DNA of 64,000 bases, taken from assembly GCF_004010195.1 (NCBI RefSeq), contig NC_057737.1, positions 14,128,511 to 14,192,510 on the forward strand. Reading direction: 5' to 3'. Below are positions 2,951 to 58,482 of the stretch, one piece after another. Below the pieces are notes generated by a model. The model made no database searches. It was not told where the DNA came from and worked only from the letters and a program-made list of their open reading frames with translations. How positions within the stretch are numbered: the first letter of the stretch is position 1; every line of letters starts with the position of its first letter. The DNA is from Chiloscyllium plagiosum. Taxonomy: Eukaryota. The position numbers and the translations under genes were made by a program.

Positions 2951-4458
2951 ACCTCATTCACACCAACACTTTTGACACAGAGGCCAAAGGAAAGAGTAAA
3001 GATGCTGTAGAATGAGAGGCAATGGTGTCAGCAAGACTCATTGACCTGTATACGCCCTGTTCTGACAAATCACAGGGATGGTAGGGATGCTGAAACTGAC
3101 ATCAAGCTTTGGGTAAAAGTCCAAAAAAAAGTGTCAAGCAATGTTTATGTGCCTAATTATTATCATCAGCCCAGCTGGAGAGAGTGTTTATTTGACATTG
3201 GGCAAAGATGGCATTGAACTTGGCTGCAGTGTTCCAAGTTATTGGATAGCCTGCCAATGTCTTTGGCAGAGACCCGAAGATTTTCCACTTAGACACTAAC
3301 TGGTGCCCAGCAACTAAACAATGGCCAGCATCAAATAACAAATAGAGTGGCATCTGCAGGATCACTTATTTCAATAATCTGCACATTGTGTGTGTGTTGT
3401 TCATTTGCACAAGGTGTATTTTCTAAGCTGGAGGAAGCGGGAGGTGGCGTGTATGAACTGCAGCAGATATTTAAAAGGATGCCTGAACTAATAGGATGCA
3501 CTTTTATTTAAATTAGAGTTTAAATATTACTGTGCAACTTGGCTGCAAGAACTCTCATTAAACACAACTTGGAGCTTCAAATGAATTAGGCTTTCATAAG
3601 AAAAGTGATGATTTGGAGATGCTGGTGTTGGATTGGGGCATACAAAGTGCTTCCCAATAAACCTGTTCGACTATAACCTGGTGTTGTGTGATTTCTAACT
3701 TCAGAAAAGTGGCAATCTTTGGAGCTGAAGGTACAACCAAATAATGACTGTGGGTGGAACATAATGGTTCCAGCTTAGGAGGGTGGAGGGCCTGCTTGGT
3801 AGAAAGTGGTGGTGAGAGGCTAACCATCAGCTGGAAACCTCGTGGCAACCCTGATGTGGCAGTTTCCTGGAGACATGAGAGGCACTAATCTGATAAGTGC
3901 CAAGTGTGAGAGGAAATTGACCTTGAGAATCCTACTGGAGGGCAGATTTCCTGCCTCAAGAGAGCTGCCAGCCAATCAGTGGCCGATACCACATGGTGGC
4001 CTATACAGTGGAGAAAGGTGACTAGGACGTGTTCATTGGAACAAAACTGAGAGGTCTCATTGAAGAGGCCAATGGGGTAATCTCTAAAATGGCATAAAGG
4101 CCCAGAAGGAAAAATGATTAAACCTTGGCCTGATTTGTACATACTTCAAAATAGAGCTTCAGTATGAACAGTATGCATATTTCCATGTATTACACATTTT
4201 CTTACTGCTTTCTCCCTCCAGAATAGTTTGTTCCCTGGGTTCATCTGTTCCCACACATGCGTATCTCCATCAGGCCTAACAGTATGATCCATCTACCAGT
4301 GCCGAGGCCTGCGGTTTTTCTGGTTATAAGCTTGTGTGGTGTGGCCCATACCCATTGCTCATTAATTTGTTTTATTCACGCATGGGACATGGGTGACACT
4401 GGGTCAACATTTATTGCCTGTTGTTGTGGTTCTGTTCGCCGAGCTGGAAATTTTTGTT

Positions 4459-4498
4459 GCAAATGTTTCGTCCCCTGTTTACGTGACATCCTCAGTGC
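4459..4498 (-). ncRNA. Hammerhead ribozyme motif (left arm)
   Basis: GCA-CTGAGGA-T-GTCAC-GTAAACAG-GGGAC-GAAA-CATT-TGC on the minus strand. Confidence 0.6.
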
Positions 4499-4879
4499 TT
4501 GGTAGCCTCCTGTGAAGCGCTTCTGTGGTGTTTCCTCCGGCATTTATAGTGGCCTGTCCCTGCCGCTTCCGGTTGTCAGTTTCAGCTGTCCGCTGTAGTG
4601 GCCGGTATATTGGGTCCAGGTCGATGTGTTTGTTGATGGAGTTTGTGGATGAGTGCCATGCTTCTAGGAATTCCCTGGCTGTTCTTTGTTTGGCTTGCCC
4701 TATAATGGTAGTGTTGTCCCAGTCTAATTCATGTTGCTTGTCGTCGGCGTGTATATTGTAGTAGCCAATATACCGGCCACTACAGCGGACAGCTGAAACT
4801 GACAACCGGAAGCGGCAGGGACAGGCCACTATAAATGCCGGAGGAAACACCACAGAAGCGCTTCACAGGAGGCTCCCAA

Positions 4880-4919
4880 GCACTGAGGATGTCACCGAGA
4901 CAGGGGACGAAATGTTTGC
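4880..4919 (+). ncRNA. Hammerhead ribozyme motif (right arm)
   Basis: GCA-CTGAGGA-T-GTCACC-GAGACA-GGGGAC-GAAA-TGTT-TGC; helix I is GCA/TGC. Confidence 0.65.
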
Positions 4920-7819
4920 AACAAAAATTTCCAGCTCGGCGAACAGAACCACAACAATGAGCACCCGAGCTACAAATCTTCACCCAAACATTTATTGCCT
5001 GTCCCTAGCTGCCCTTGAGCAGATGGTGGTGAGCTGCTTTCCTGAACCACCACAGTCCACATGCTGTAGGTAGACTGACCATACCATTAGGGACAGAGTT
5101 CCAGGATTTTGACCCAGTAATAGTGGAGGAGCAGTGATTTTGTTTCCACGTCAGAATGACCTGGAGGGGAACTTGCAGATGGTGGTGTCACCATGTACCT
5201 CCTGCCCTTGTGCTCCCAGATGCTAGTGGTCATGGGTTTGGAAAATGCCATCTACAGATCTTTGGCAAATTATTGCAGTACGTCTTGTATATTGTTCACA
5301 CTGCTGCTACTGAACGTTGGTGGTGGAGTGACTAAATGTTTGTGGATGTGATGTCAAACAAATGGGTCTACTTTGTCCTGGATAGTGTCAAGCTTATTGA
5401 GTGTTGTTGGAGCTGTACTCATCCAGGCAAGTCGGACTATTCCATCACGCTGCTGACTTGTGCCTTGTAGATAGTGCACAGGTTGTGGAGAGTCAGGAAG
5501 TGAGTTACTCACTGCAAGATTCCTAGACTTTCACCTGCTCTTGTAGCCACTGTGTTTATGTGGTGAATCCAGTTGAGTTTCTGGTCACTGGTAACCCCAA
5601 GATGTTGATAATGGGGGATTCAGTGATGGTAATGTCATTGATTGTCAAGGTGTGATGGTTAGATTGTCTCTTATTGAGGATGTTCATTGTCTGGTACTTG
5701 TGTGGTACAAATGTTACTTGCCACTTTTCAACTCCAGCCTGGCTATTGCCCAGGTTTTGCGGCATTTGGACATGGACTGCCATGGACATGGAAAGTCTTT
5801 TGGTTATGTGTGTAAGTAAAGTATATGGGTTCGTCCACTGATACTCTCGATGCTTTTAAAGAAAGGTGGCACCACAGAAAATGGCATGCTTTATCACCTC
5901 CCTCTCTCCCTACGTCTCCCTCAACTTTGGTGTTATTGCATTGTTGTTAATGGGCTTTGCATGTAAATTAATCAATTGGAACACATGGGGTTTAGTGGTG
6001 GTTAATAGAGGAAACATACCATGGGTGATTTGGGCATAGGAGAAAAGCTGTTCAGTTATTTGTGATAACACTTCTGCAAACAATAGAAAAGAGAAATAGA
6101 GATCTGTTCTTCTTCCCTTTCCAACTCCATTTTGATTTAGACCTGGCCCTCTCATCCTACCTCTCCCTTGGTGGTAATGAATTTCCCTTAATGGGCTTTG
6201 CACATAAATTGATTAATAGGAAATAGGGTGATTTAGTGGTGGTGGTAAAGGTAAAGTTGTCATACTCTTGCCAGACCATAGGGCTGCTATCTCATTAGAC
6301 AGAAATGACTGGTGGTGTTTTAAACTGAGAGTCACTCTGCCTCAGGCGAGGGGAGAATTTGAAAAGGAGAGTCTTCCATGGTGATCTCAGCCAGTGTAGG
6401 AATTGAAGCCACGCTGTTGGTGTAATTCTGCATTGCAAACCAGCCATTGGTAGATATAAGTACCATGGGTGATTTGGTGGTTGAAAAGAGCACTTCTGGA
6501 TATAAAAAGAAATTAAAAATAAAAAAGTTGCGTTCCTTGGCCTCTTATGGTGCAGCAGAGATACCCTTACCATTGAGCAACGGGGCCTAGGTTCATGTCT
6601 CACTTGTTTCAGAGGTGTGTAATATCATCTATATGGGGCTTTTTAGAAATCTAATAAAAAGAGCTGGGTTCTTCCCAGTTGGGAAGTTGGCTTCTGGACA
6701 GGGAAAAGATGAAAACTGATGTTTATGTCTACAGATTTACAATAAAATCCTTGAAACTCTTTGAGAATCTTCTGCTGCGTATTCAACATATGCATATTGT
6801 ACTGTTAAACATTGAATGGTTTGGCAAGAAAGAGATTACTCAGTAGCTTGATGTTTAGCAAACAAAATTAACATCAATCTAAAACTGTTCATAAAAGATG
6901 GTTCAGAAATTCATCCTAGAGAGATGCTGGCAGATAAAGTCCCAGACCCAAACCCCAATAGATTTGTTTTGTTCCTTGGCACGTAGTTGTCAGGACCCAC
7001 CCCCGCTTGTTTCCAAACTATTTTGTCTTTTCATTTTCTCTCTTGAAACAAAGATAAAAGAAGTAGACTGCATTTAAATAATCTTTTATGCCCTCAAAAT
7101 GTCCTGCTTTATAACCAGTCAACTGATGACTCGGATAGGATCACCTGTCCACCTTTGGAGATTCATTAAACTGGTTATTCTTCATATGTGAACAAAGATT
7201 AATTGAACTGCATTTTTCTGGTGGAGTTAGCATATCTGGTTTAGTATGTTAATACACCACAATATTGTGATTTTGTTGCGACAAATAATTTGCTTGTTTT
7301 GTTAAGGTTCCTAAAATTTCTCTGGGCTACTTCAATGTTTCTCAGAGATCCACAGACCTTGGTGGTTTGTGACACTTGCCAGAATACTTGCATGAATGGT
7401 GGCTGGAGGTGGGTTGAATGTGGGATAGAAGCTTGGCTATCATGTGTCTGAGCAGAGGGGCCTGGCTGTCTCATCGCAGAGGGAAATCCACATGGAATAG
7501 TGTCAATTGCCAGGTAGACTCACAGGTGAGATCAGCCTCATTTGAGAAAAGAAAGTTCTGTGCTACTTAAACTCAAAGAATGGGCACAAAATACATGTTT
7601 GCCAATGTGTTGTATAGTATTGAGTTAAAGCTGGTGCATCAGAGATCATTGATTCAATTTAAAAAAAGTTTTTCAATTAGAAACGGTTGAGAACCACTGA
7701 TCTAGGTTAGTGGATGTTAATCAGCATCAGCAACCCTTGATCAACCGAGATAAAGCCCATGGATTAAATCTAAACTCTGCAGTCCCCCCAAATTCAATCT
7801 TGAGTGGTTGTGGATAATT

Positions 7820-15083: not shown

Positions 15084-16436
15084 AAGTGGTTCCTATGGAA
15101 TAATATACCAACAAGAATTCAACTCATTCATTAAAGGAGAGGAGCGAATCTAAATGTAAAATAATAACAAAAAAGTTATTTAAATTTCACTCATTTAAAA
15201 TTTTAAAATTGCACTTTCTCAATTTTACCATTGTTTTTTGCTGAGACTTTAAAATAAGATTGCAATTCTTGATCAACACATGTTGCCTATTACAGGACAC
15301 TCTTCCTATTTACCTACTCAATAAGTTGGGATATGCCTAATTTTCATCACATTATTTACAGTGAATGGTATTTAACTTCAGTGGAAAAGCTATTAAACTG
15401 GGCAAATCTTTAATAACTATTTATTGCCCATTCTGAATTGTCCTTCAGCTACTGGGCATCACCTTCTTGAATACAATTCGGTGACTTGTTAAGTCCTGAC
15501 AGAGAAGCGTAAACCGTGGTTACCGTATCCAGAGTCATATGCAAGACAAACTGAGAAATGTTATCGACAGATTATGATTTTAAAAGTATTTCTGTCCCCT
15601 ATTCTCATTACCTGTCCATAATTAAACTGTGGTTTTATTTTCCTCCCTTTATTGAAAAAAAAGACATATTTTCTACATTTCCTCTGTTTGACAACCTGTA
15701 CCTTAAGGACCACAATAACACTGTTAAATAAGAAATAGGGTTTATTTCACAGACTCTTAACTGTGGAAGAGTACTTTTCAACTCACGCATGCTTGCAAAC
15801 ACACAAAGTAAAATCAAATTGAAATAGATAAAGAGATAATTCAATCAGCACAAATTGATTATAAAACAATCAAGAGATAGCAGATAATCAATGTCCTTGC
15901 TTTGAAGATGGAGTCCAAATGTCCAAAACTGAAGTGAGTAGTCTGCAATTCCTTTATGGAAATGGTTGATTAGCTAGTTGGCAGTTGAGGTGTTGTGCAC
16001 ATTTTTTTCTCTCTAAAAATCTCTTTGAAGTTCTTCTGTGAAAGTTATTTTTGCAATGTAACTTCTATTTCACTGTTTTGGCAAACACAAGTTGATTGTT
16101 GACAGATGTGGAGATGCCAGTGTTGGACTGGGGTGGACAAAGTCAGAAGTCACAGAACACCAGGTTATAGTCCAACAAGTACATTTGAAATCACAAGCTT
16201 TTGGAGTGCCGGTCCTTCATCGGGTGAAGTCTGGTGTGACTTCTGGCATTGTTTACAGAAATTACAAATAAAACTTGCTGGCTACGGAAGCCTTTTTCAT
16301 TTTTTTGCCCAGAGTTCGGGGTTTTCATAACGTGAGTAGATAGTGCATGAACTAGAATTGAGGTCTGCTTTTTTGAAATTGCATGGTTAAAAGGCAGTTG
16401 GATTCAGTACTATAGAGTCCTTGAGGGAAGGGTAAA

Positions 16437-28697: not shown

Positions 28698-28829
28698 ATG
28701 TCCGACAGGAAGGCTGTGATCAAAAATGCTGACATGTCTGAAGATATGCAGCAAGATGCAGTAGACTGTGCAACACAAGCCATGGAAAAGTACAACATTG
28801 AAAAGGACATTGCCGCCTTTATCAAAAAG
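28698..28829 (+). CDS. DYNLL2: Dynein light chain LC8-type 2, coding exon 1
   Basis: [44 protein letters not shown] with DYNLL2-type S2, D16, A21, D23 and M29. Donor AAG|GTAC. Adjacent to SRSF1. Confidence 0.96.
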
Positions 28830-29709
28830 GTACCTTGCGGTATACTTATTTTCTTTTCCGTTTTAACAATTGCTTTTAAATGGGTATAGCCTTCAGGTGA
28901 AGAGCTGGTTACCAAAACTCTGTGTGCAGGAGCCAGTTAACAATAACGTGCAGTTACCCTTGTGCTGTTGTAATGCAGCACCTGTATTGTTTATCGCTCC
29001 TCCTCTGCTTTTATTCCAATACAACATTCAACCATTTGAAATTGAATTCAAAATCATAAGATCAGACTTCACTCATGCTCTTCTGCAATAAAAGAACTTT
29101 GCCTGGCTTATCAGGATCTTGAGATAGAGTGAATATTGTGCAACTGTTGCAGGGTTTTATCCTTGACGTTTAGTGTCAGATAATTGTGTCGAGGTCCACA
29201 AAATCAGCATCTTCTAAAGGAATGTGGAGTGTGCTTGTATAGTGTAACTTAAAATCACCTGGGAAAACTAATATTGGAGCAGAAAAGGCCTCTGCCAAAC
29301 ACAAACCATGGACTTCGTACCCTGAATGAACAATAGGGGAAATTTTGTGAAGTCTTAAGACAGCGTGTACATTTTATACTTTTTAAATTCTTAATCAAGT
29401 CATGCTAGTTTAGCTCCATATAGTCTAAAAACCCTCATTTCAATTGAAATGTCTCTCTTCTTCTTCTTCTTCCAAAGATGGGTAATATATAACCAAATCT
29501 AATTTACTTTTACCCCAGAATTTTTTTCATTACAACCCCCTTTCACTAAACCTGGGACTCCATTGATTTGTATCTCTAGCACTGTACTATTTCAATTTTT
29601 TAACTTTACTAACTGTTGGTTTAAACAAAAATAAACATTTGTATTCGGGATTGACCTATACTGATGTGGGAAGATGTTCGTGTTTTTTTTTCAATGAATG
29701 AATGATTGA

Positions 29710-29871
<162 letters not shown>

Positions 29872-30985
29872 AAGGAGAAAGGGGTTTAAAAAATGAACTA
29901 ATGCACTGACGGCTGGAGCCACAGTCCCTTTAATGGCTAAACAGCTGCATGGACTTTATCTTGTGTATATGTAGCAGTAAACTTGCTTTAGTTGCCCAGA
30001 AAGGTTTTCTTTTCTTTGTATTCGATTTGAAATGGATAAATGCTTAACAGTGGCCTTTAAAAGAATAAACTGGAATGGTTTTACTTGAAGATTGGATCAC
30101 TGGACTTCTCTTCAGAAGCAAAGGTTTTTTTCAATTCAACCCCAATCCTATTTTTCTCCAATTCTTTCTATTTGGAAGAGAGGGCAGTTGTACTGGAGAT
30201 GTTGGGTGTATTGGCTTTCTTTTTTTAAGCTATATTTCTTTAATAGCAAAATTGCTATTGCATTGAATTCCATCAGCAACATGTTCCTTTTTTTTTAAAA
30301 TAAAAAGGTAATTTGAATTTGATTCACCACTGTTCTGAGGCTAAGTAAGACTTTATTTAAAAATCCGCTACATAGAAACATGAAATTGTTGGATTACCAG
30401 AATGACAAGGAAGGCTTGATTGCACCTTAAGCAGGGCAAAACAGTGTGTTTTCCCCCTTGTGCTGTAATCTGCCAAGAGTGGAGAAACTTTCAATACTTA
30501 TAATTCTGTGCAAGGTCATCATCAAACCAGCAACAGCTGAAGTTGCTCTGACTTGCTGTAAAATGTACAGATGCTACCAGGCAGTTTGTACATGATCATG
30601 TGTTTTTTTTTGTTTGCATGTTTTCCAAAGTGTCTGTAACATGGTGTCTTTTTATTTTCAAAACCTATCCCTTACAAAAACCATTTTAAACCTTTATAAG
30701 CTATCCTTATTATTATAAGCAAACTATATACTTTAAAGGTGCTTATATTGATTTTTTTTTTCTAGTCTTCCCAAATGATGTCAAACAAATCTAAACTGCT
30801 GAGAATTTTGATCCCCACTTTTTTTCCCAGCCCCCCCCTCCATACCTGTACTTGTGTATGTACTTAGACTACATAGCTTGTGATTAAAGCATGGAATAGC
30901 TTCACTCCTTGTTCATAATCTGTCAATGAGCTAACTGTTAATGTAATTGCCAATAAATGGAAAGTGTCAGACTTCTGTCAATTAT
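29872..30985 (+). other. DYNLL2: DYNLL2 3' UTR with candidate poly(A) signals
   Basis: Repeat-free, U-rich sequence. AATAAA at 30064, 30299 and 30952; the last is followed by a GT/T-rich tract. Confidence 0.55.
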
Positions 30986-34183: not shown

Positions 34184-34907
34184 CAAAAAGTACCAAAGCA
34201 TCAATCTCATGAGAAAACCATAACTTTTAAATTCTTCAATTCACATGCTACCTGGAAATGGCCAGAAATCATACTCCTTCGATTTCCAATGCACCATCAT
34301 TAGGACTGCTGTCTTTGAGAAGAAGGCCTCACATGTAACACCAACCTCACCCTAGGACAACGGGATGGGAAATTAATATTGCCTTGTCATTGTCATTCAG
34401 AAACTTGGAAAAATATAGTAAGATCTTTAGGTCATTTCAGAACTCCGATGCTTTTGTACACAAACAATACTACAAAGTGTAGAGATAAGCCAAAGAGACC
34501 AGATAGGACAAAAATAAAATTCTTGGGTTGCTGGAAGCCAGAAATCAAAACAGAAAATGCCTGGCATTCTCCTGTCAAGAGAGAAACAGATTTAATGTTG
34601 CAGGTTAATGACCTTTGGTCAGAATTAGACTAGGTTACATTCTAGCTTCTAGGTTCAATCATCATTCTCTGTGGTTCTCAGCCAGGGAGGAAGCAGGAAT
34701 GCTAAAATCAATTTCTGCATCCCTGAGTTGTAGAGAGGAGTTAGGCTCATTCATATCTATCAAATCATCACAGTTGAAAGACATAGACAATGAATAAAAA
34801 CTAGATTCAGCTCATTTGAACTTGCATTATTTTTCCTATAGTTCATGATGTCCTTAAGAGAATGTCAGAAGTCACACAACACCAGGTTATAACAGGTTTA
34901 TTTGCAG

Positions 34908-34944
34908 TCACAAGCTTTCGGAGCGCTGCTCCTTCATCAGGTGA
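34908..34944 (-). ncRNA. Hammerhead ribozyme motif, intact-looking (tandem copy 1)
   Basis: TCAC-CTGATGA-A-GGAGC-AGC-GCTCC-GAAA-GCTT-GTGA: helix I TCAC/GTGA, 5-bp helix II, palindromic AAGCTT helix III, CUU triplet. Confidence 0.8.
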
Positions 34945-35365
34945 AGTGAAGAGAAGCACACAGGCACAGAATTTATAGGCAGAGTTCAAAAGATGGTACA
35001 AATGATGTGAGTGGAGTGTTGATAGACTAAATAGCAAGTCGCTGCAAGTGATCAAAATGTCAGATGGTGTGAGTAAAATGTAAACAGCTGAATTGCAAGT
35101 GAAGGGATGACCTATGATCCGATTAATTGAGGCAGAGAGATAATTACGAAAAAATTAAAAATAAGGTGGTGCTTAAGAGAACAACATTTATCATCCTTAT
35201 CAGGTATGGCCTACATATGGCTCCAGGCGCACAACTTTGTGGTTAAATCATATCTGTCCTCTGAAACATCCTAGAAAGCTTTACAATTTCATAGTAGTGG
35301 ATAATAAGTGCTGGGCTTGCCATCAGAAGTCACACAACACCAGGTTATAACAGGTTTATTTGCAG

Positions 35366-35402
35366 TCACAAGCTTTCGGAGCGCTGCTCCTTCATCAGGT
35401 GA
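35366..35402 (-). ncRNA. Hammerhead ribozyme motif, intact-looking (tandem copy 2)
   Basis: Identical to copy 1, 458 nt away. Confidence 0.8.
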
Positions 35403-36996
35403 AGTGAAGAGAAGCACACAGGCACAGAATTTATAGGCAGAGTTCAAAAGATGGTACAAATGATGTGAGTGGAGTGTTGATAGACTAAATAGCAAGTTGC
35501 TGCAAGTGATCAAAAATGTCAGACGGTGTGAGTAAAATGTAAACAGCTGAATAGCAAGTGAAGGGATGACCTATGATCCGATTAATTAAGGCAGAGAGAT
35601 AATTACGAAAAAATTAAAAATAAGATGGTGCTTAAGAGAACAACATTTATCATCCTTATCAGGTATGGCCTACATATGGCTCCAGGCACACAACTTTGTG
35701 GTTAAATCATATCTGCCCTCTGAAACATCCTAGAAAGCTTTACAATTTCATAGTAGTGGATAATAAGTGCTGGGCTTGCCAGTGACACTCACATCCTGTG
35801 AATAAATTATTTTTAAAAAGTACTGATGCCAATATAACGACACCCCAGCAAGATTAAAGGCATTCAAAACTGGAATGGTGAAAATTGTGCTTTCTATGCC
35901 CAACTTTTCCATAATTATTTTTCCTATTTTTAAGGTAATGAGGCTCTAATGCTTGGCTATAGTATGCAGGGAATAGGTCAGCCTCTAGTGATGGACTTCA
36001 TCCAAGTTGCTGATCTTCAATATGTGAGCATTGATGATGAATGTTAATGGAAATCAGCAGGATATTCAATAGTGAAGGCATCGTTACTAAGGCAGATTCT
36101 GTTTTAATTCAAAGTCCATTATGATGTACTGCTAAGAATGAGTTCTTGAATACAATTAGGAACAAAATCTGTGGTCTGTTTTTCCTTATTCTGTGTGGAT
36201 CAGCTACTGGAGCAGAGATTAGGGTTCGTTGCTGGTCTGCCTGATTCAGATACTTAGGAGATTAACTTGGTAAGCCTGTTTGGATCTTATTTGCTATAAA
36301 ATTATTAAATGATTCTCTTTCACAAAAAACGACCTTAAAATTACTCAGGCCTCTTGGTGCCACGCTCAGTCAAATGCACTTGATGCAAAGGCTGTTCTTA
36401 CCTCACCCTTGGAATTCAGTTGTGTTGACCCATTCTGGACTCAGGCTGTAACTGCTTTGGAGTTGAGTGGCTTTGGTAGAACCCAAATGGAATATTGCTG
36501 AACAAAATGCTACTTGATAAAATATTGATTACACCTTCCATTAAAATACTGTTAATTGATCCTACCTGCCTGGTAGTGTGTCAAAATATTGATTAAACTA
36601 ACTATACCTTGGAAGTTTTCATTTTCTTTCAGCTAAGTGTTGTATAGCTCTAGTGGAACAGCTTAGCTAGTTCTGGAGCATCAGTATTCAGCACTGCACC
36701 TGGGATGTTATTGGGGCCCATAGCCTTTACTGCATTTGTATACTTTGCCATTTTTTAATACTACATGTAGTGAGAGAAACTGACTGAAGACAGGCATCTG
36801 TGATTGTGGAGTTCTCAGGAAGAGACCAAGATGGATCAATTACTCATTGCTTCTGACTGAAAGTGGTTACAAACACTTCAGACTTGCCTTTTACGCTTAC
36901 ACGATACCCTCACCATTGTTGAACATGGGGAAATTCAGAGTCTCCTCCTCTCATTGACTGTTTAATTGTCCATCACCATTAATAACCAGAAATGGT

Positions 36997-38072
36997 GGCA
37001 GCGGGCCGTGGAGGGGGTCGTTAGGGCCGAAAAAAAAAGAAAAGAAAAAAAAAAAAACAAAAAAATAAAATAAATAAATAAATAAAAGAGCTCCTAACCG
37101 GAAAGTGGGTAGGGGCGGGCTGCCTTAGAGTGGTTGGAAGGTGGGAGAAAAAAAAAAAGAAAAGAAAAAAAAAATAAACAGGGGTGTTTGCCATCGGGCG
37201 GTGGGGATCCCCAGTGGAGGGCTCTCTATGCGGGAGTCCTCCCCCTTTCTCTCGGGGATCTGGGGTGGAGGGTGCTGCACGCAGCAGTCCCCTGCAACCG
37301 CAGATTGCGGTGGTTCACGGACTCCCAGCCCAACTGCTTGTTCTGTGGTGCTGTGGAGTCCGTGGACCACGTGTATATGGGGTGTGGGCGTTTGCACTCC
37401 CTTTTTGATTTCCTGAAAAACCTTCTCCTCTGTTTTTGGCTGCACTTCAGTCCCACGCTCCTGATCTTTGGGCACCCGGTACAGAGGGAGGAGGGCAGGT
37501 CTGAAGACCTCCTCGTGGGTCTGCTCCTGGGCCTGGCCAAACTGGCCATCAACAGGTCCAGGCAGCGGGCAGTGGAGGGGGACGTTAGGGCCGACTGCCT
37601 GCCCCTCTTCCGCGGTTACGTTAGAGCCCGGGTGTCCTTGGAGAAGGAGCACGCGGTGTCCACCAACACCCTGGAGTTGTTCAGGGAGAGGTGGGCGCCA
37701 CAGGGAGTGGAGTGCATCATTTCTCCCTCCAATTCTATTTTGATTTAGTCCCTACCCTCCCCTTCACTGTTTTGATCACACAGCACTGTCCCTTGATGTG
37801 AAGGGCAGTGCCTGTCACTGGCCACCCGGGTGTTTTCCTATCTTCCTGGTGGTGGAAATTGAATAAAGATTCGTGCACTTTGTCTTTCAGTGTGTCTCGC
37901 ACCTGCGCACACACACACACACCATGGGTTCTGGGGATAAAATAAGCACTACCGCACTTAGGTGGTAGTGTGGAATAAAAAAAATAAAAAAAAAAAAGAA
38001 ATAAAAGAAAAAAAATAAAAGAAGGGAGCCAATTGAATAAAGATTTGTGCACTTTGTGTCTCTAAAAAGAAA
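36997..38072 (+). mobile_element. Tx1/L1-clade non-LTR retrotransposon, 5'-truncated composite insertion
   Basis: Open ORF2 C-terminus (to 37748) with CCHC motif CLFCGAVESVDHVYMGC and DLGWRVLH. AATAAA plus A-tails. 16-bp TSD AATAACCAGAAATGGT at 36981-36996 and 38073-38088. Confidence 0.85.
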
Positions 38073-39480
38073 AATAACCAGAAATGGTAGGACAACACTT
38101 TAGTCTGATCCATTGTTTGTGGGATTGTTTAGCTATATCTATACCATGGGGCTTCAGTTGTTTACCACGTTTGCAGTCCGTTGTAGCTGCATCATGTTGG
38201 TAGCTCATATTTAAGAGCACCTGGTGCTGCTCTTGATGGGCTTTGCTATCATCTTAATTGAAACAGGATTAGCCTCATGGCTTGCAAATAGTAATGTTCG
38301 AGTCAGATATATGCCAGGCCATGAAGTTACAGATTCTGATGGAATAAAATTCTGCTGCTGTTGAAGCCACCATCATCTGAATGTGCAGTTTTAAAGTTGG
38401 TGGTGACTTTATGCTGATATGTTCCCATGATAACGTTAGGTTGCTAATTCCAAGATGTTGACCCTATCCACGTTTGGATGCTGAATGTAATGAATGAGAG
38501 ATGGCCTGACAAAAGGCAACAAAAACACAAATCTCTAGAGATTTAAAACAAAATGCTGAAAAAACACAGCTTTTCCAACAGTAAAGTAAAAAGCAGAGTT
38601 ACATTTTGACATAAGTCTTTGCTAGAATTGAAGACTGTAAGGAAGCTTGTCTAAAGACATTATGAACTTCCAAGATGAAAAATAGCTAAAATTTGTGAAA
38701 ACAAATGTACTTTCCAAAATTGAACAGGAAAGGATTCAAAATGAGATCCCCTTTTCTGGTGTACAATTAAGTTTTTTTTCATAGATCAAATTATCATTCC
38801 ATATAAGTTACTTGCCGAGCACTCAACACACGCCATCTCGTCTGCTACAGAGTAACAATCCAAATCTATCTGGCTTCGTACAGTGTAACTGTAAGGAAAC
38901 ATAGCGCATACCAACACCACTATCTCCACCTGGAGTAATTCACAATGCCAACCACTCAGTAAAGGTTACTTGTTACCACTGTGTATACATATAGTGTATA
39001 CTATAAATGTAACTACTTTTGTAACCAGAAAACAATTGGAATTATATTATTAAAAATATGGTTAAAGAACCGAAACTCGAAAGGTTTAAAAAAGAAAGGC
39101 CTAACAGAATAAAAGTGACAATGATCTATTAGTAAACCTTGTTACTAACTCAGGTTCCCAAACAGAAAAACTAATCCTTATTCACAATCAAAAACTCTTC
39201 ACAGTCATGAAAAAAAATCTTCCATTAAGTTTCCCCTTTGTCAAAGTCGCCCAAATGATTCGAATCTTGACTCAAATAATCTCGTTAACTCTGCCGGGAA
39301 GAACACTTAGGGTTCACAAACACAGCACTGAATCCCTCTTAATCGAGAGAAGAAAGAGACCTTTAGCAATCAGTTGTTGATGTAGGTGTGCCCTTTAACC
39401 CGGAGGAAGTCGTTGGTTGTGTACAGTTGTTGCCATAGAGAAGAGTTCAAATTGAAGGAAGTGAGTCAATGGGAAGAGCC

Positions 39481-39672
39481 ATGGCTGCTGAGGAAGGACA
39501 GAGGGGAAGAACAGCGGTTTACCCTCAGCCAGACTGTGGCTTCCACCGCTTCTACACCAAGCTCTCCACCATCAGGGCCTCGGACGACGAGAATTTTAAA
39601 ACCGAGGTCAACCTGGTGTTCGATCAGCTCATCTCGGAAAACTACCTCAACGATCCCAGCATCAGCCGCGAG
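39481..39672 (+). CDS. HEATR6: HEAT repeat-containing protein 6, exon 1 (alternative in-frame ATG at 39469)
   Basis: MAAEEG...FKTEVNLVFDQLISENY matches HEATR6 (TEIHLLFDQLISENY). GCCATGG Kozak context; donor GAG|GTAAGG. Confidence 0.9.
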
Positions 39673-58273: not shown

Positions 58274-58482
58274 AAAAACAAAACAGAAATTGTTGGAACA
58301 ACTCCGCAGGTCTGGCAGCATCTGTGGAGAGAAATCAGAGTTAACATTTTGGATTGAGTGACCCTTCCTCAAGGTCCTCAGGCCTGAGGAAGGGTCACTC
58401 AACCCAAAACATTAACTCTGATTTCTCTCCACAGATGCTGCCAGACATGTTGAGTTGTTCCAGGAATTTCAGTTTTTGTTCC
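58274..58482. repeat. Near-perfect palindrome formed by two head-to-head Penelope-like pLTR ends
   Basis: Arms of about 95 bp; central perfect palindrome TCCTCAGGCCTGAGGA at 58375-58390; decayed HHR CTGAGGAAGGGTCACTCAACCCAAAACATT. Confidence 0.85.

What the first reader, a model, noticed from the sequence alone, without database searches (positions are those of the whole stretch)
34865..35781. Tandem 458-bp unit with two intact hammerhead ribozymes: candidate retrozyme-like self-processing or circular RNA locus
Seen: two ~98% identical head-to-tail units. Each carries, on the minus strand, a complete minimal hammerhead (TCAC-CUGAUGA-A-GGAGC/GCUCC-GAAA-GCUU^GUGA). Predicted cuts are at 35370/35369 and 34912/34911, releasing a 458-nt monomer. 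The unit includes about 150 bp of unrelated flanking repeat, and the first pLTR copy has a 10-bp TSD (CTTAAGAGAA at 34853-34862 and 35172-35181). Known: Penelope-type minimal HHRs have a loopless palindromic helix III (here AAGCUU) and cleave as dimers, and tandem HHR repeats (newt satellite 2, metazoan non-LTR retrozymes) produce monomeric and circular RNAs. Inference: the duplication places two HHRs in cis, which could complete the dimeric ribozyme and create a new chimeric retrozyme-like unit, possibly transcribed divergently from the HEATR6 promoter about 4 kb away.
Basis: partly seen in the sequence, partly recalled or inferred. Interest (0 to 1): 0.8.

Follow-up and report, generated by a model that had tools for sequence, protein, structure and literature searches.

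The report
Locally duplicated Penelope hammerhead fragment
Two real self-cutting-RNA (hammerhead) motifs sit 458 bases apart because the tail end of an old, very common jumping gene was later copied once in place along with some neighbouring DNA; such pairs are frequent in this genome, so the locus looks ordinary rather than a new RNA-circle device.

Summary
Observation confirmed: two units (458/459 bp, 8 differences), each with a minus-strand minimal hammerhead, cut sites 458 nt apart, 10-bp TSD. Each unit is a 308-nt 5'-truncated 3' end of an old Penelope-like element (PLE) plus 151 nt of older host repeat. The insertion is shared with two related species, whose contigs show one unit; the copies share 28 private columns and differ at 7, so the duplication came later. 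The junction occurs once in the genome: the unit has not spread. Same-strand intact pairs are common: 31 others among 131 loci fetched from four 31-nt spacing windows. One polyA RNA run gave no sense reads on the unique flank (blind to circles). AATAAA follows each cut site by 9 nt, and family RNAs are polyadenylated there. Verdict: an inert local duplicate of a known kind; the junction is not yet confirmed in independent reads. The scan met this family many times in this genome (99 notes). One lead: the junction lies on the family's proximal natural 3' end, as do 2 of 5 other long duplications (0.18 expected), hinting at PLE-triggered in-place copying.

The parts
34853..34862 (+). left copy of the 10-bp target-site duplication of the original insertion
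   Evidence: sequence; right copies at 35172-35181 and 35631-35640
34864..35171 (-). element copy 1: 5'-truncated 3' end (308 nt) of a high-copy Penelope-like element, no ORF
   Evidence: 4274 candidates, best other copies 83-86%; 6.8% from family majority; longer relatives carry RT/HTH_animal-type ORF fragments upstream
34908..34944 (-). minimal type-I hammerhead 1 (C3 at 34940, predicted cut 34912/34911, CUU triplet)
   Evidence: descriptor scan
34897..34902 (-). AATAAA 9 nt after cut site 1, followed by a GU-rich stretch
   Evidence: 145 reads of other family copies carry polyA at the matching place 34891
35172..35322 (.). host flank in unit 1 (TSD copy + 141 nt of an old unrelated repeat)
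   Evidence: 99-100% only at this locus, others 71-90%
35322..35323 (.). duplication junction; 1 nt inside the element's 3' end, +7 after the family's GTGTGA anchor
   Evidence: unique in the genome at up to 2 mismatches; position
35323..35630 (-). element copy 2
   Evidence: 98% to copy 1; 8.1% from family majority
35366..35402 (-). minimal type-I hammerhead 2 (C3 at 35398, predicted cut 35370/35369), identical to hammerhead 1
35355..35360 (-). AATAAA 9 nt after cut site 2
35631..35781 (.). host flank in unit 2, continuous with unique DNA to the right
   Evidence: contigs of related species run from it into the right flank

Best explanation
Step 1 (shown by sequence and family comparison): an old PLE inserted a 308-nt 5'-truncated 3' end on the minus strand into an older repeat between a dynein-light-chain gene and the next gene, with a 10-bp TSD. 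Its minimal hammerhead and AATAAA are the family's standard equipment and happened to stay unmutated. Step 2 (inferred from shared private changes and from related species): much later, in this lineage only, 458 bp (element plus 151 bp of its 5' flank) were copied once in place, most likely by re-synthesis from a nick or break at the element's 3' end followed by end-joining (trigger: host repair/slippage about 60%, PLE machinery about 40%). Step 3 (inferred): the pair is a passenger. It has not moved, is not detectably transcribed in the run laid, and a Pol II read-through would tend to be cut and polyadenylated right after the first hammerhead, so dimeric cleavage and a 458-nt monomer or circle are rare or absent in vivo.
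For: High-copy family: 4279 matches of a 29-nt hammerhead pattern; PLE hallmarks: bimodal natural 3' ends 35-40 nt apart (37 and 43 of 91 copies), frequent head-to-head inverted copies, RT/HTH_animal ORF upstream in longer copies. Age order: 28 shared private columns vs 7 differing; unit-unit 1.5% vs 12.4% to the nearest other fetched copy; organisms B and C (about 3-5% diverged) hold the left insertion junction and cover 35144-35322 with a single contig at flank-like depth (10.8 vs 9.9; 13 vs 10-12) that runs on unlike unit 2. Not mobile: junction 1 hit in 3.56 Gb. Common: 6 of 60, 7 of 25, 5 of 20 and 13 of 26 fetched pair loci have both hammerheads intact; 3 of 75 descriptor-positive loci chosen by motif alone have a same-strand partner; other element-plus-flank duplications exist (L043, L148, L170, L178, L251). 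Silent: run X21 has 0 sense-strand depth in bin 35191-35360 and 0 in 34296-34832, against 67-92 on the neighbouring gene's 3' UTR; no pile-up of read ends. 6 of 7 substitutions are transitions, 3 at CpG, as for real mutation.
Against: No listed contig spans the junction in any of the three contig runs (only 23 of about 57,650 pieces are shown); the conspecific run X2 has one contig that runs from the flank into right-hand DNA with 2 rather than 4 differences to unit 1, which fits a one-unit allele or a collapsed duplicate. The RNA run is one 3'-polyA single-cell library, 2% read, blind to circles and to cleaved RNA. Only 1 of 28 long copies of this old subfamily still passes the descriptor, so an intact motif is uncommon (about 8% expected by chance at 7% divergence).
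Confidence: 0.72

Rival explanations
1. PLE-driven in-place copying (concerns how the duplicate arose; compatible with its being inert now). A still-active related PLE protein bound a read-through transcript of this locus, nicked DNA 151 bp upstream of the element, began reverse transcription at the element's proximal internal start site and copied element plus flank until it rejoined the homologous DNA; or its endonuclease nicked at the element's end and host synthesis did the rest.
For: Junction at +7, inside the proximal natural 3'-end mode +5..+14 (chance 2.3%); L148 (+6) and L170 (+12) do the same; 4 of 13 duplications vs 0.80 expected (P 0.006), 3 of 12 without this locus (P 0.04), 2 of 5 long ones without it (P 0.012). 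PAc starts RT at two internal sites bounding the tail and is proposed to nick its own pLTR (PMC11167929, main text read). PLEs mobilise flanking host DNA in trans (PMC3846280, passages).
Against: Small, post-hoc sample; L043, L178, L251 and six of the seven short units fall outside the zone; 7 rows were dropped by my judgement before the count; the site is AT-rich and next to a hairpin, which could attract slippage; a 2-nt GT microhomology with loss of 1 base fits host repair too.
Confidence: 0.3
2. Assembly artefact: two haplotypes of a single-unit locus placed in tandem.
For: Junction not seen in any listed contig; X2 contig passes from flank to right-hand DNA unbranched.
Against: Units differ by 1.7% while X2 differs from the window by about 0.3% (6 substitutions in about 1,890 nt of five listed intergenic contigs); no N in the window, chromosome-scale contig; junction sits on a biologically meaningful site; X2 contig depth 9.35 also fits a collapsed duplicate; short junction contigs are easily dropped.
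Confidence: 0.11
3. One reading: the locus is transcribed on the minus strand, the two hammerheads fold as a dimer, and a 458-nt monomer or circle is made: a newborn chimeric retrozyme.
For: Both motifs intact, identical, with palindromic helix III and in cis; dimers of weak hammerheads cleave better than monomers in axolotl (PMC7229834, passages); meets the TRF-plus-two-HHR definition of the 2026 preprint; if the PLE-copying rival holds, the locus was once transcribed in the germ line.
Against: No sense reads on the unique flank; AATAAA after the first motif; monomer circle MFE -87.1 vs shuffles -90.3 +/- 5.2; dimer fold 16 kcal/mol above the MFE, no better than shuffled contexts (17.4 +/- 4.8; bare motifs 9.8; model lacks tertiary terms); U at the cut site is the weakest choice (recalled); min-HHR dimers cleave poorly (PMC4209133), PAc HHR needs its protein and no reads end at its cut site (PMC11167929), 8 of 9 Xenopus dimers inactive (2026 preprint); no dispersed copies.
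Confidence: 0.06
4. The tandem formed during the original insertion, was homogenised by gene conversion, and collapsed to one unit in the relatives.
For: PLE insertions often form partial tandems (PMC8557442, passages; L108, L145, L220); junction at a natural 3' end.
Against: Needs repeated conversion (1.5% vs 7-8% from the family majority) and loss in both B and C.
Confidence: 0.04

Closest known systems
Minimal hammerheads (min-HHR) of metazoan Penelope-like elements and their truncated solo copies (Cervera & De la Pena 2014, PMC4209133)
   Same: [quoted passage not shown]
   Different: here two copies lie head to tail through a secondary duplication that includes host DNA, not as the two pLTRs of one element
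Animal non-LTR retrozymes (Cervera & de la Pena 2020, PMC7229834; Li, Clavereau & Pollet 2026, bioRxiv 10.64898/2026.07.22.740005)
   Same: tandem units of a few hundred bp, each with a type-I hammerhead, PLE-derived, intergenic, GC 40%; the preprint reports such tandems in one chondrichthyan and proposes local amplification of PLE ends
   Different: single locus, two units, one third host repeat, minimal rather than canonical hammerhead, monomer not self-paired, no expression seen
Penelope/Poseidon-type insertion architecture (PAc, PMC11167929; PMC8557442)
   Same: 5' truncation, two 3'-end positions bounding a 35-40-nt tail, head-to-head inverted copies, partial tandems in the family
   Different: this tandem post-dates the insertion and carries 151 nt of upstream target DNA

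Membership tests
PLE minimal hammerhead | intact core, extra nt before G10.1, helix II, short helix I, palindromic helix III | tested here: met
   compared with the features listed in PMC4209133
PLE minimal hammerhead | self-cleavage as a dimer | not testable with these tools
   needs in vitro transcription; folding model gives no support
Endonuclease-bearing Penelope-like element (family of the fragment) | PLE-type reverse transcriptase upstream of the hammerhead-bearing end in longer copies | tested here: met
   321-aa frame of L114: Atlas 0.95 to HTH_animal clusters, 0.94 to HTH_animal/RVT_1, RVT_1 only E 0.026, below cut-off; it matches 10 of the 28 loci L003-L030, 8 of them in the element's own orientation upstream of it. 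That HTH_animal marks PLE RTs is recalled
Endonuclease-bearing Penelope-like element (family of the fragment) | C-terminal GIY-YIG endonuclease | tested here: inconclusive
   VYLI..C...WYIGET-like motifs between RT and 3' end in L007, L008, L011, L053, L059 (motif reading recalled); 0 of 5 fragments hit a GIY-YIG family in Pfam
Endonuclease-bearing Penelope-like element (family of the fragment) | optional 30-40-bp tail; inverted and partial-tandem copies | tested here: met
   3' ends at +5..+14 (37 of 91) and +40..+54 (43 of 91); inverted pairs in many loci
Non-LTR retrozyme | tandem repeat with a complete type-I hammerhead in at least two consecutive units (operational definition of the 2026 preprint) | tested here: met
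Non-LTR retrozyme | multi-copy family of the same unit, spread as monomers or multimers with their own TSDs | tested here: not met
   flank part at 99-100% only here; junction unique; TSD belongs to the element alone
Non-LTR retrozyme | highly self-paired monomer circle | tested here: not met
   72 of 100 shuffles fold as well
Non-LTR retrozyme | abundant linear and circular monomer RNA | tested here: inconclusive
   no sense reads on the unique part in a 3'-polyA run that cannot see circles; contigs of X2, which behaves like RNA (depth in thousands on the UTR), cover the flank at 9 like neighbouring intergenic DNA at 5-12

The most novel reading that the evidence does not exclude
Penelope-like machinery re-copies its own old insertions in place: starting at the element's proximal reverse-transcription start site it duplicates the element together with hundreds of bases of host flank, so that chimeric two-hammerhead units (this locus, L148, L170) are born continually and form the raw material from which non-LTR retrozymes arise. 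This would be a missing birth step between PLE ends and retrozymes and a source of tandem duplications in shark-like genomes; this locus need not be active for it to hold.
Probability: 0.22. Interest if true: 0.55.

Novelty: new member of a known kind. Interest (0 to 1): 0.17.

Why it matters
As it stands it matters little: one of many in-cis hammerhead pairs left by an abundant retroelement. If the locus did make a 458-nt circle it would be a datable newborn retrozyme with captured host DNA. If the junction bias holds genome-wide, it would show how PLEs seed retrozyme-like tandems and add a duplication mechanism that can be tested with the PAc in vitro system.

Tried and rejected
Rfam scan of the window: 0 hits at gathering score. 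Local MFE folds do not form the hammerhead (z -0.5 and +0.2); weak evidence, since such models penalise the junction. Pfam on decayed ORF fragments gave nothing useful; PDB search nothing. The deep read signal on the hammerhead bin in X21 (89.6) was rejected as locus expression: loose ends differ from the locus and the unique flank has none. Gene name for the exon at 39481 not confirmed; HEATR6 and the paralogue number DYNLL2 are recalled (Pfam confirms only dynein light chain). First junction test had a hand-set zone and mishandled three loci; it gave 4 of 13 vs 2.4 expected (P 0.20) and 3 of 6 long ones vs 0.59 (P 0.013); redone with the zone taken from natural ends. Rows dropped before that count: L159 (looks like unequal crossover between two older copies), L199, L206, L207, L262 (independent neighbouring insertions), L247 (same locus as L229), L254 (new insertion inside a long duplicated target). 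14 of the 74 other hits were not fetched. Literature searches for this family in sharks (1 paper each, listing only) and for PLE-linked flank duplications (1 review, listing only) found no description; the library lacks most subscription papers. Supplements of the 2026 preprint, which may list the chondrichthyan families, were not seen.

Full report
Observation. The tandem is there as described: 34865-35781, two units of 458 and 459 nt with 7 substitutions and 1 indel. A descriptor for minimal type-I hammerheads finds both minus-strand motifs with cuts at 35370/35369 and 34912/34911, and 0.03 hits per shuffled window. The 10-mer CTTAAGAGAA stands at 34853, 35172 and 35631. The layout is X-TSD-[element-TSD-flank]-[element-TSD-flank]-Y.

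What the element is. The window lies on a chromosome-scale contig of a 3.56-Gb genome; 'shark-like' is my recall of its repeats. The 308-nt element part has 4274 first-look candidates, the best 38 other scored loci at 83-86%; a 29-nt hammerhead pattern matches 4279 times. The 28 best fetched relatives all run on upstream, so the window copy is 5'-truncated. Upstream they carry decayed coding frames; a search with one of them found 10318 candidates, and a 321-aa frame from these scores 0.95 to HTH_animal clusters and 0.94 to HTH_animal/RVT_1 in the Atlas (Pfam RVT_1 only E 0.026) and matches 10 of the 28 loci. GIY-YIG-like motifs follow but reach no Pfam family. Natural 3' ends fall in two modes, +5..+14 (37 of 91 copies) and +40..+54 (43 of 91) after a common anchor, which is the 30-40-bp tail between two RT start sites described for PAc (PMC11167929, parts 1-2 of 4 read). 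Head-to-head inverted copies are frequent, as described for PLEs (PMC8557442, passages). The motif has the min-HHR features of PMC4209133 (parts 1-2 of 4 read). So the fragment is the 3' end of an old Penelope-like family.

Order of events. The two copies are 6.8% and 8.1% from the family majority, share 28 private columns and differ at 7; they are 1.5% apart against 12.4% to the nearest other fetched copy. In contigs of two related organisms, about 3-5% diverged, the left insertion junction is present and 35144-35322 is covered by one contig at flank-like depth that continues unlike unit 2 (1283 nt in X9, 26 nt in X16). The insertion therefore predates these splits and the duplication is later. 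Against: no listed piece spans the junction, and the conspecific run X2 is ambiguous (one contig running into right-hand DNA, 2 differences to unit 1, depth 9.35 vs 5.5-12). An artefact is not excluded, but the units differ five times more than X2 differs from the window, and the changes are mostly transitions, three at CpG.

Is it a retrozyme? It meets the computational definition of the 2026 preprint (parts 1-3 of 5 read), which reports such tandems in one chondrichthyan and found cleavage in 1 of 9 Xenopus dimers. It fails the features of characterised retrozymes (PMC7229834, part 2 of 6 and passages): the flank part occurs at 99-100% only here, the junction once in the genome, and the monomer circle folds no better than shuffles. 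Pairs like it are common. A half-site pattern with 415-445 nt between halves hits 75 places, control 0; of 60 others fetched, 6 have both motifs intact. Three more 31-nt windows gave 25, 20 and 26 places, with 7, 5 and 13 intact pairs (two loci occur in two windows). Among 107 loci chosen by motif or similarity alone, 75 pass the descriptor and 3 of these have a same-strand partner. Other duplications of element plus host flank exist (L043, L148, L170, L178, L251).

Expression. In raw polyA single-cell reads (X21, 2% read) the dynein-light-chain 3' UTR is covered at up to 92 with a polyA site at 30984; the unique flank bin has 0 sense-strand depth, the left flank 0, and no read ends pile up. 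The 90-fold signal on the hammerhead bin comes from other family copies; 145 such reads carry polyA about 15 nt after the family's AATAAA and several hundred run across the cut site uncleaved. That hexamer lies 9 nt after each cut site here, so a transcript from the right would meet a polyA site before the second hammerhead (inference; this copy lacks 4 nt after the hexamer). The library cannot see circles. About 3.7 kb separate the tandem from the next gene's first coding exon, with a 1.1-kb retroelement piece between. The dimer fold costs 16 kcal/mol over the MFE, as in shuffled contexts, weak evidence. Published min-HHR dimers cleave poorly (PMC4209133) and the PAc motif needs its protein (PMC11167929). 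The dimer work of Lunse et al. 2017 is recalled; only its title phrase was seen in a search listing.

How the duplicate arose. The junction lies 1 nt inside the element's 3' end, at +7, in the proximal natural-end mode (chance 2.3%). Among 13 near-identical hammerhead-bearing tandems, 4 have a breakpoint there against 0.80 expected (P 0.006); without this locus 3 of 12 (P 0.04); among units of 290 nt or more 3 of 6, or 2 of 5 without it (P 0.012) (a first version with a wider hand-set zone gave P 0.20 overall; seven rows were dropped as listed). This fits a nick or an RT start at that site by PLE machinery, with PLE capture of host DNA known from rotifers (PMC3846280, passages), but the sample is small and post hoc, and host repair at an AT-rich site with 2-nt microhomology remains at least as likely.

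Verdict. A correct catch of a real motif pair, but an ordinary product of a very abundant PLE family plus one local duplication; earlier notes of this scan reached the same view for other loci of this genome (not counted as evidence). Interest 0.17; the junction bias is the one lead worth a genome-wide test.

Noticed in passing
L148 (G000:C6:9832800-9835100), L170 (C31:876100-878400), L178 (C43:3004000-3006300), L043 (C1:17709800-17713200), L251 (C17:57572174-57575459): Other head-to-tail duplications of a hammerhead-bearing PLE end with host flank (291-489 bp, 0-2.5% substitutions); two start at the family's proximal 3'-end site.
   Followed up: partly
L254 737-3012 (G000:C27:8390357-8393636): An inverted PLE piece of about 430 nt lies between two 921-bp copies of target DNA that are 99.7% identical, like an insertion with a giant target-site duplication.
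   Followed up: no
run X21 on window 34891: 145 reads of family copies are polyadenylated about 15 nt after the AATAAA that follows the hammerhead, and many span the cut site: PLE ends appear to donate polyA sites to transcripts.
   Followed up: partly
window 36981-38088: About 1.1-kb GC-rich retroelement piece with two A-rich runs and a 16-bp TSD (36981-36996, 38073-38088), between the tandem and the next gene.
   Followed up: no
window 1525, 9746, 21001, 21552, 56367, 16143-16230, 3656-3696: Further hammerhead-like remnants of at least two families; only 1525 (GUC triplet) passes the descriptor.
   Followed up: partly
window 28698-30984: Dynein light chain gene on + (Pfam PF01221), expressed, polyA site at 30984.
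   Followed up: partly
window 4421-4957 and 58280-58476: Long inverted repeats (193 nt, 97%; 92 nt, 90%); the first holds hammerhead-like core motifs at 4883 (+) and 4495 (-).
   Followed up: no
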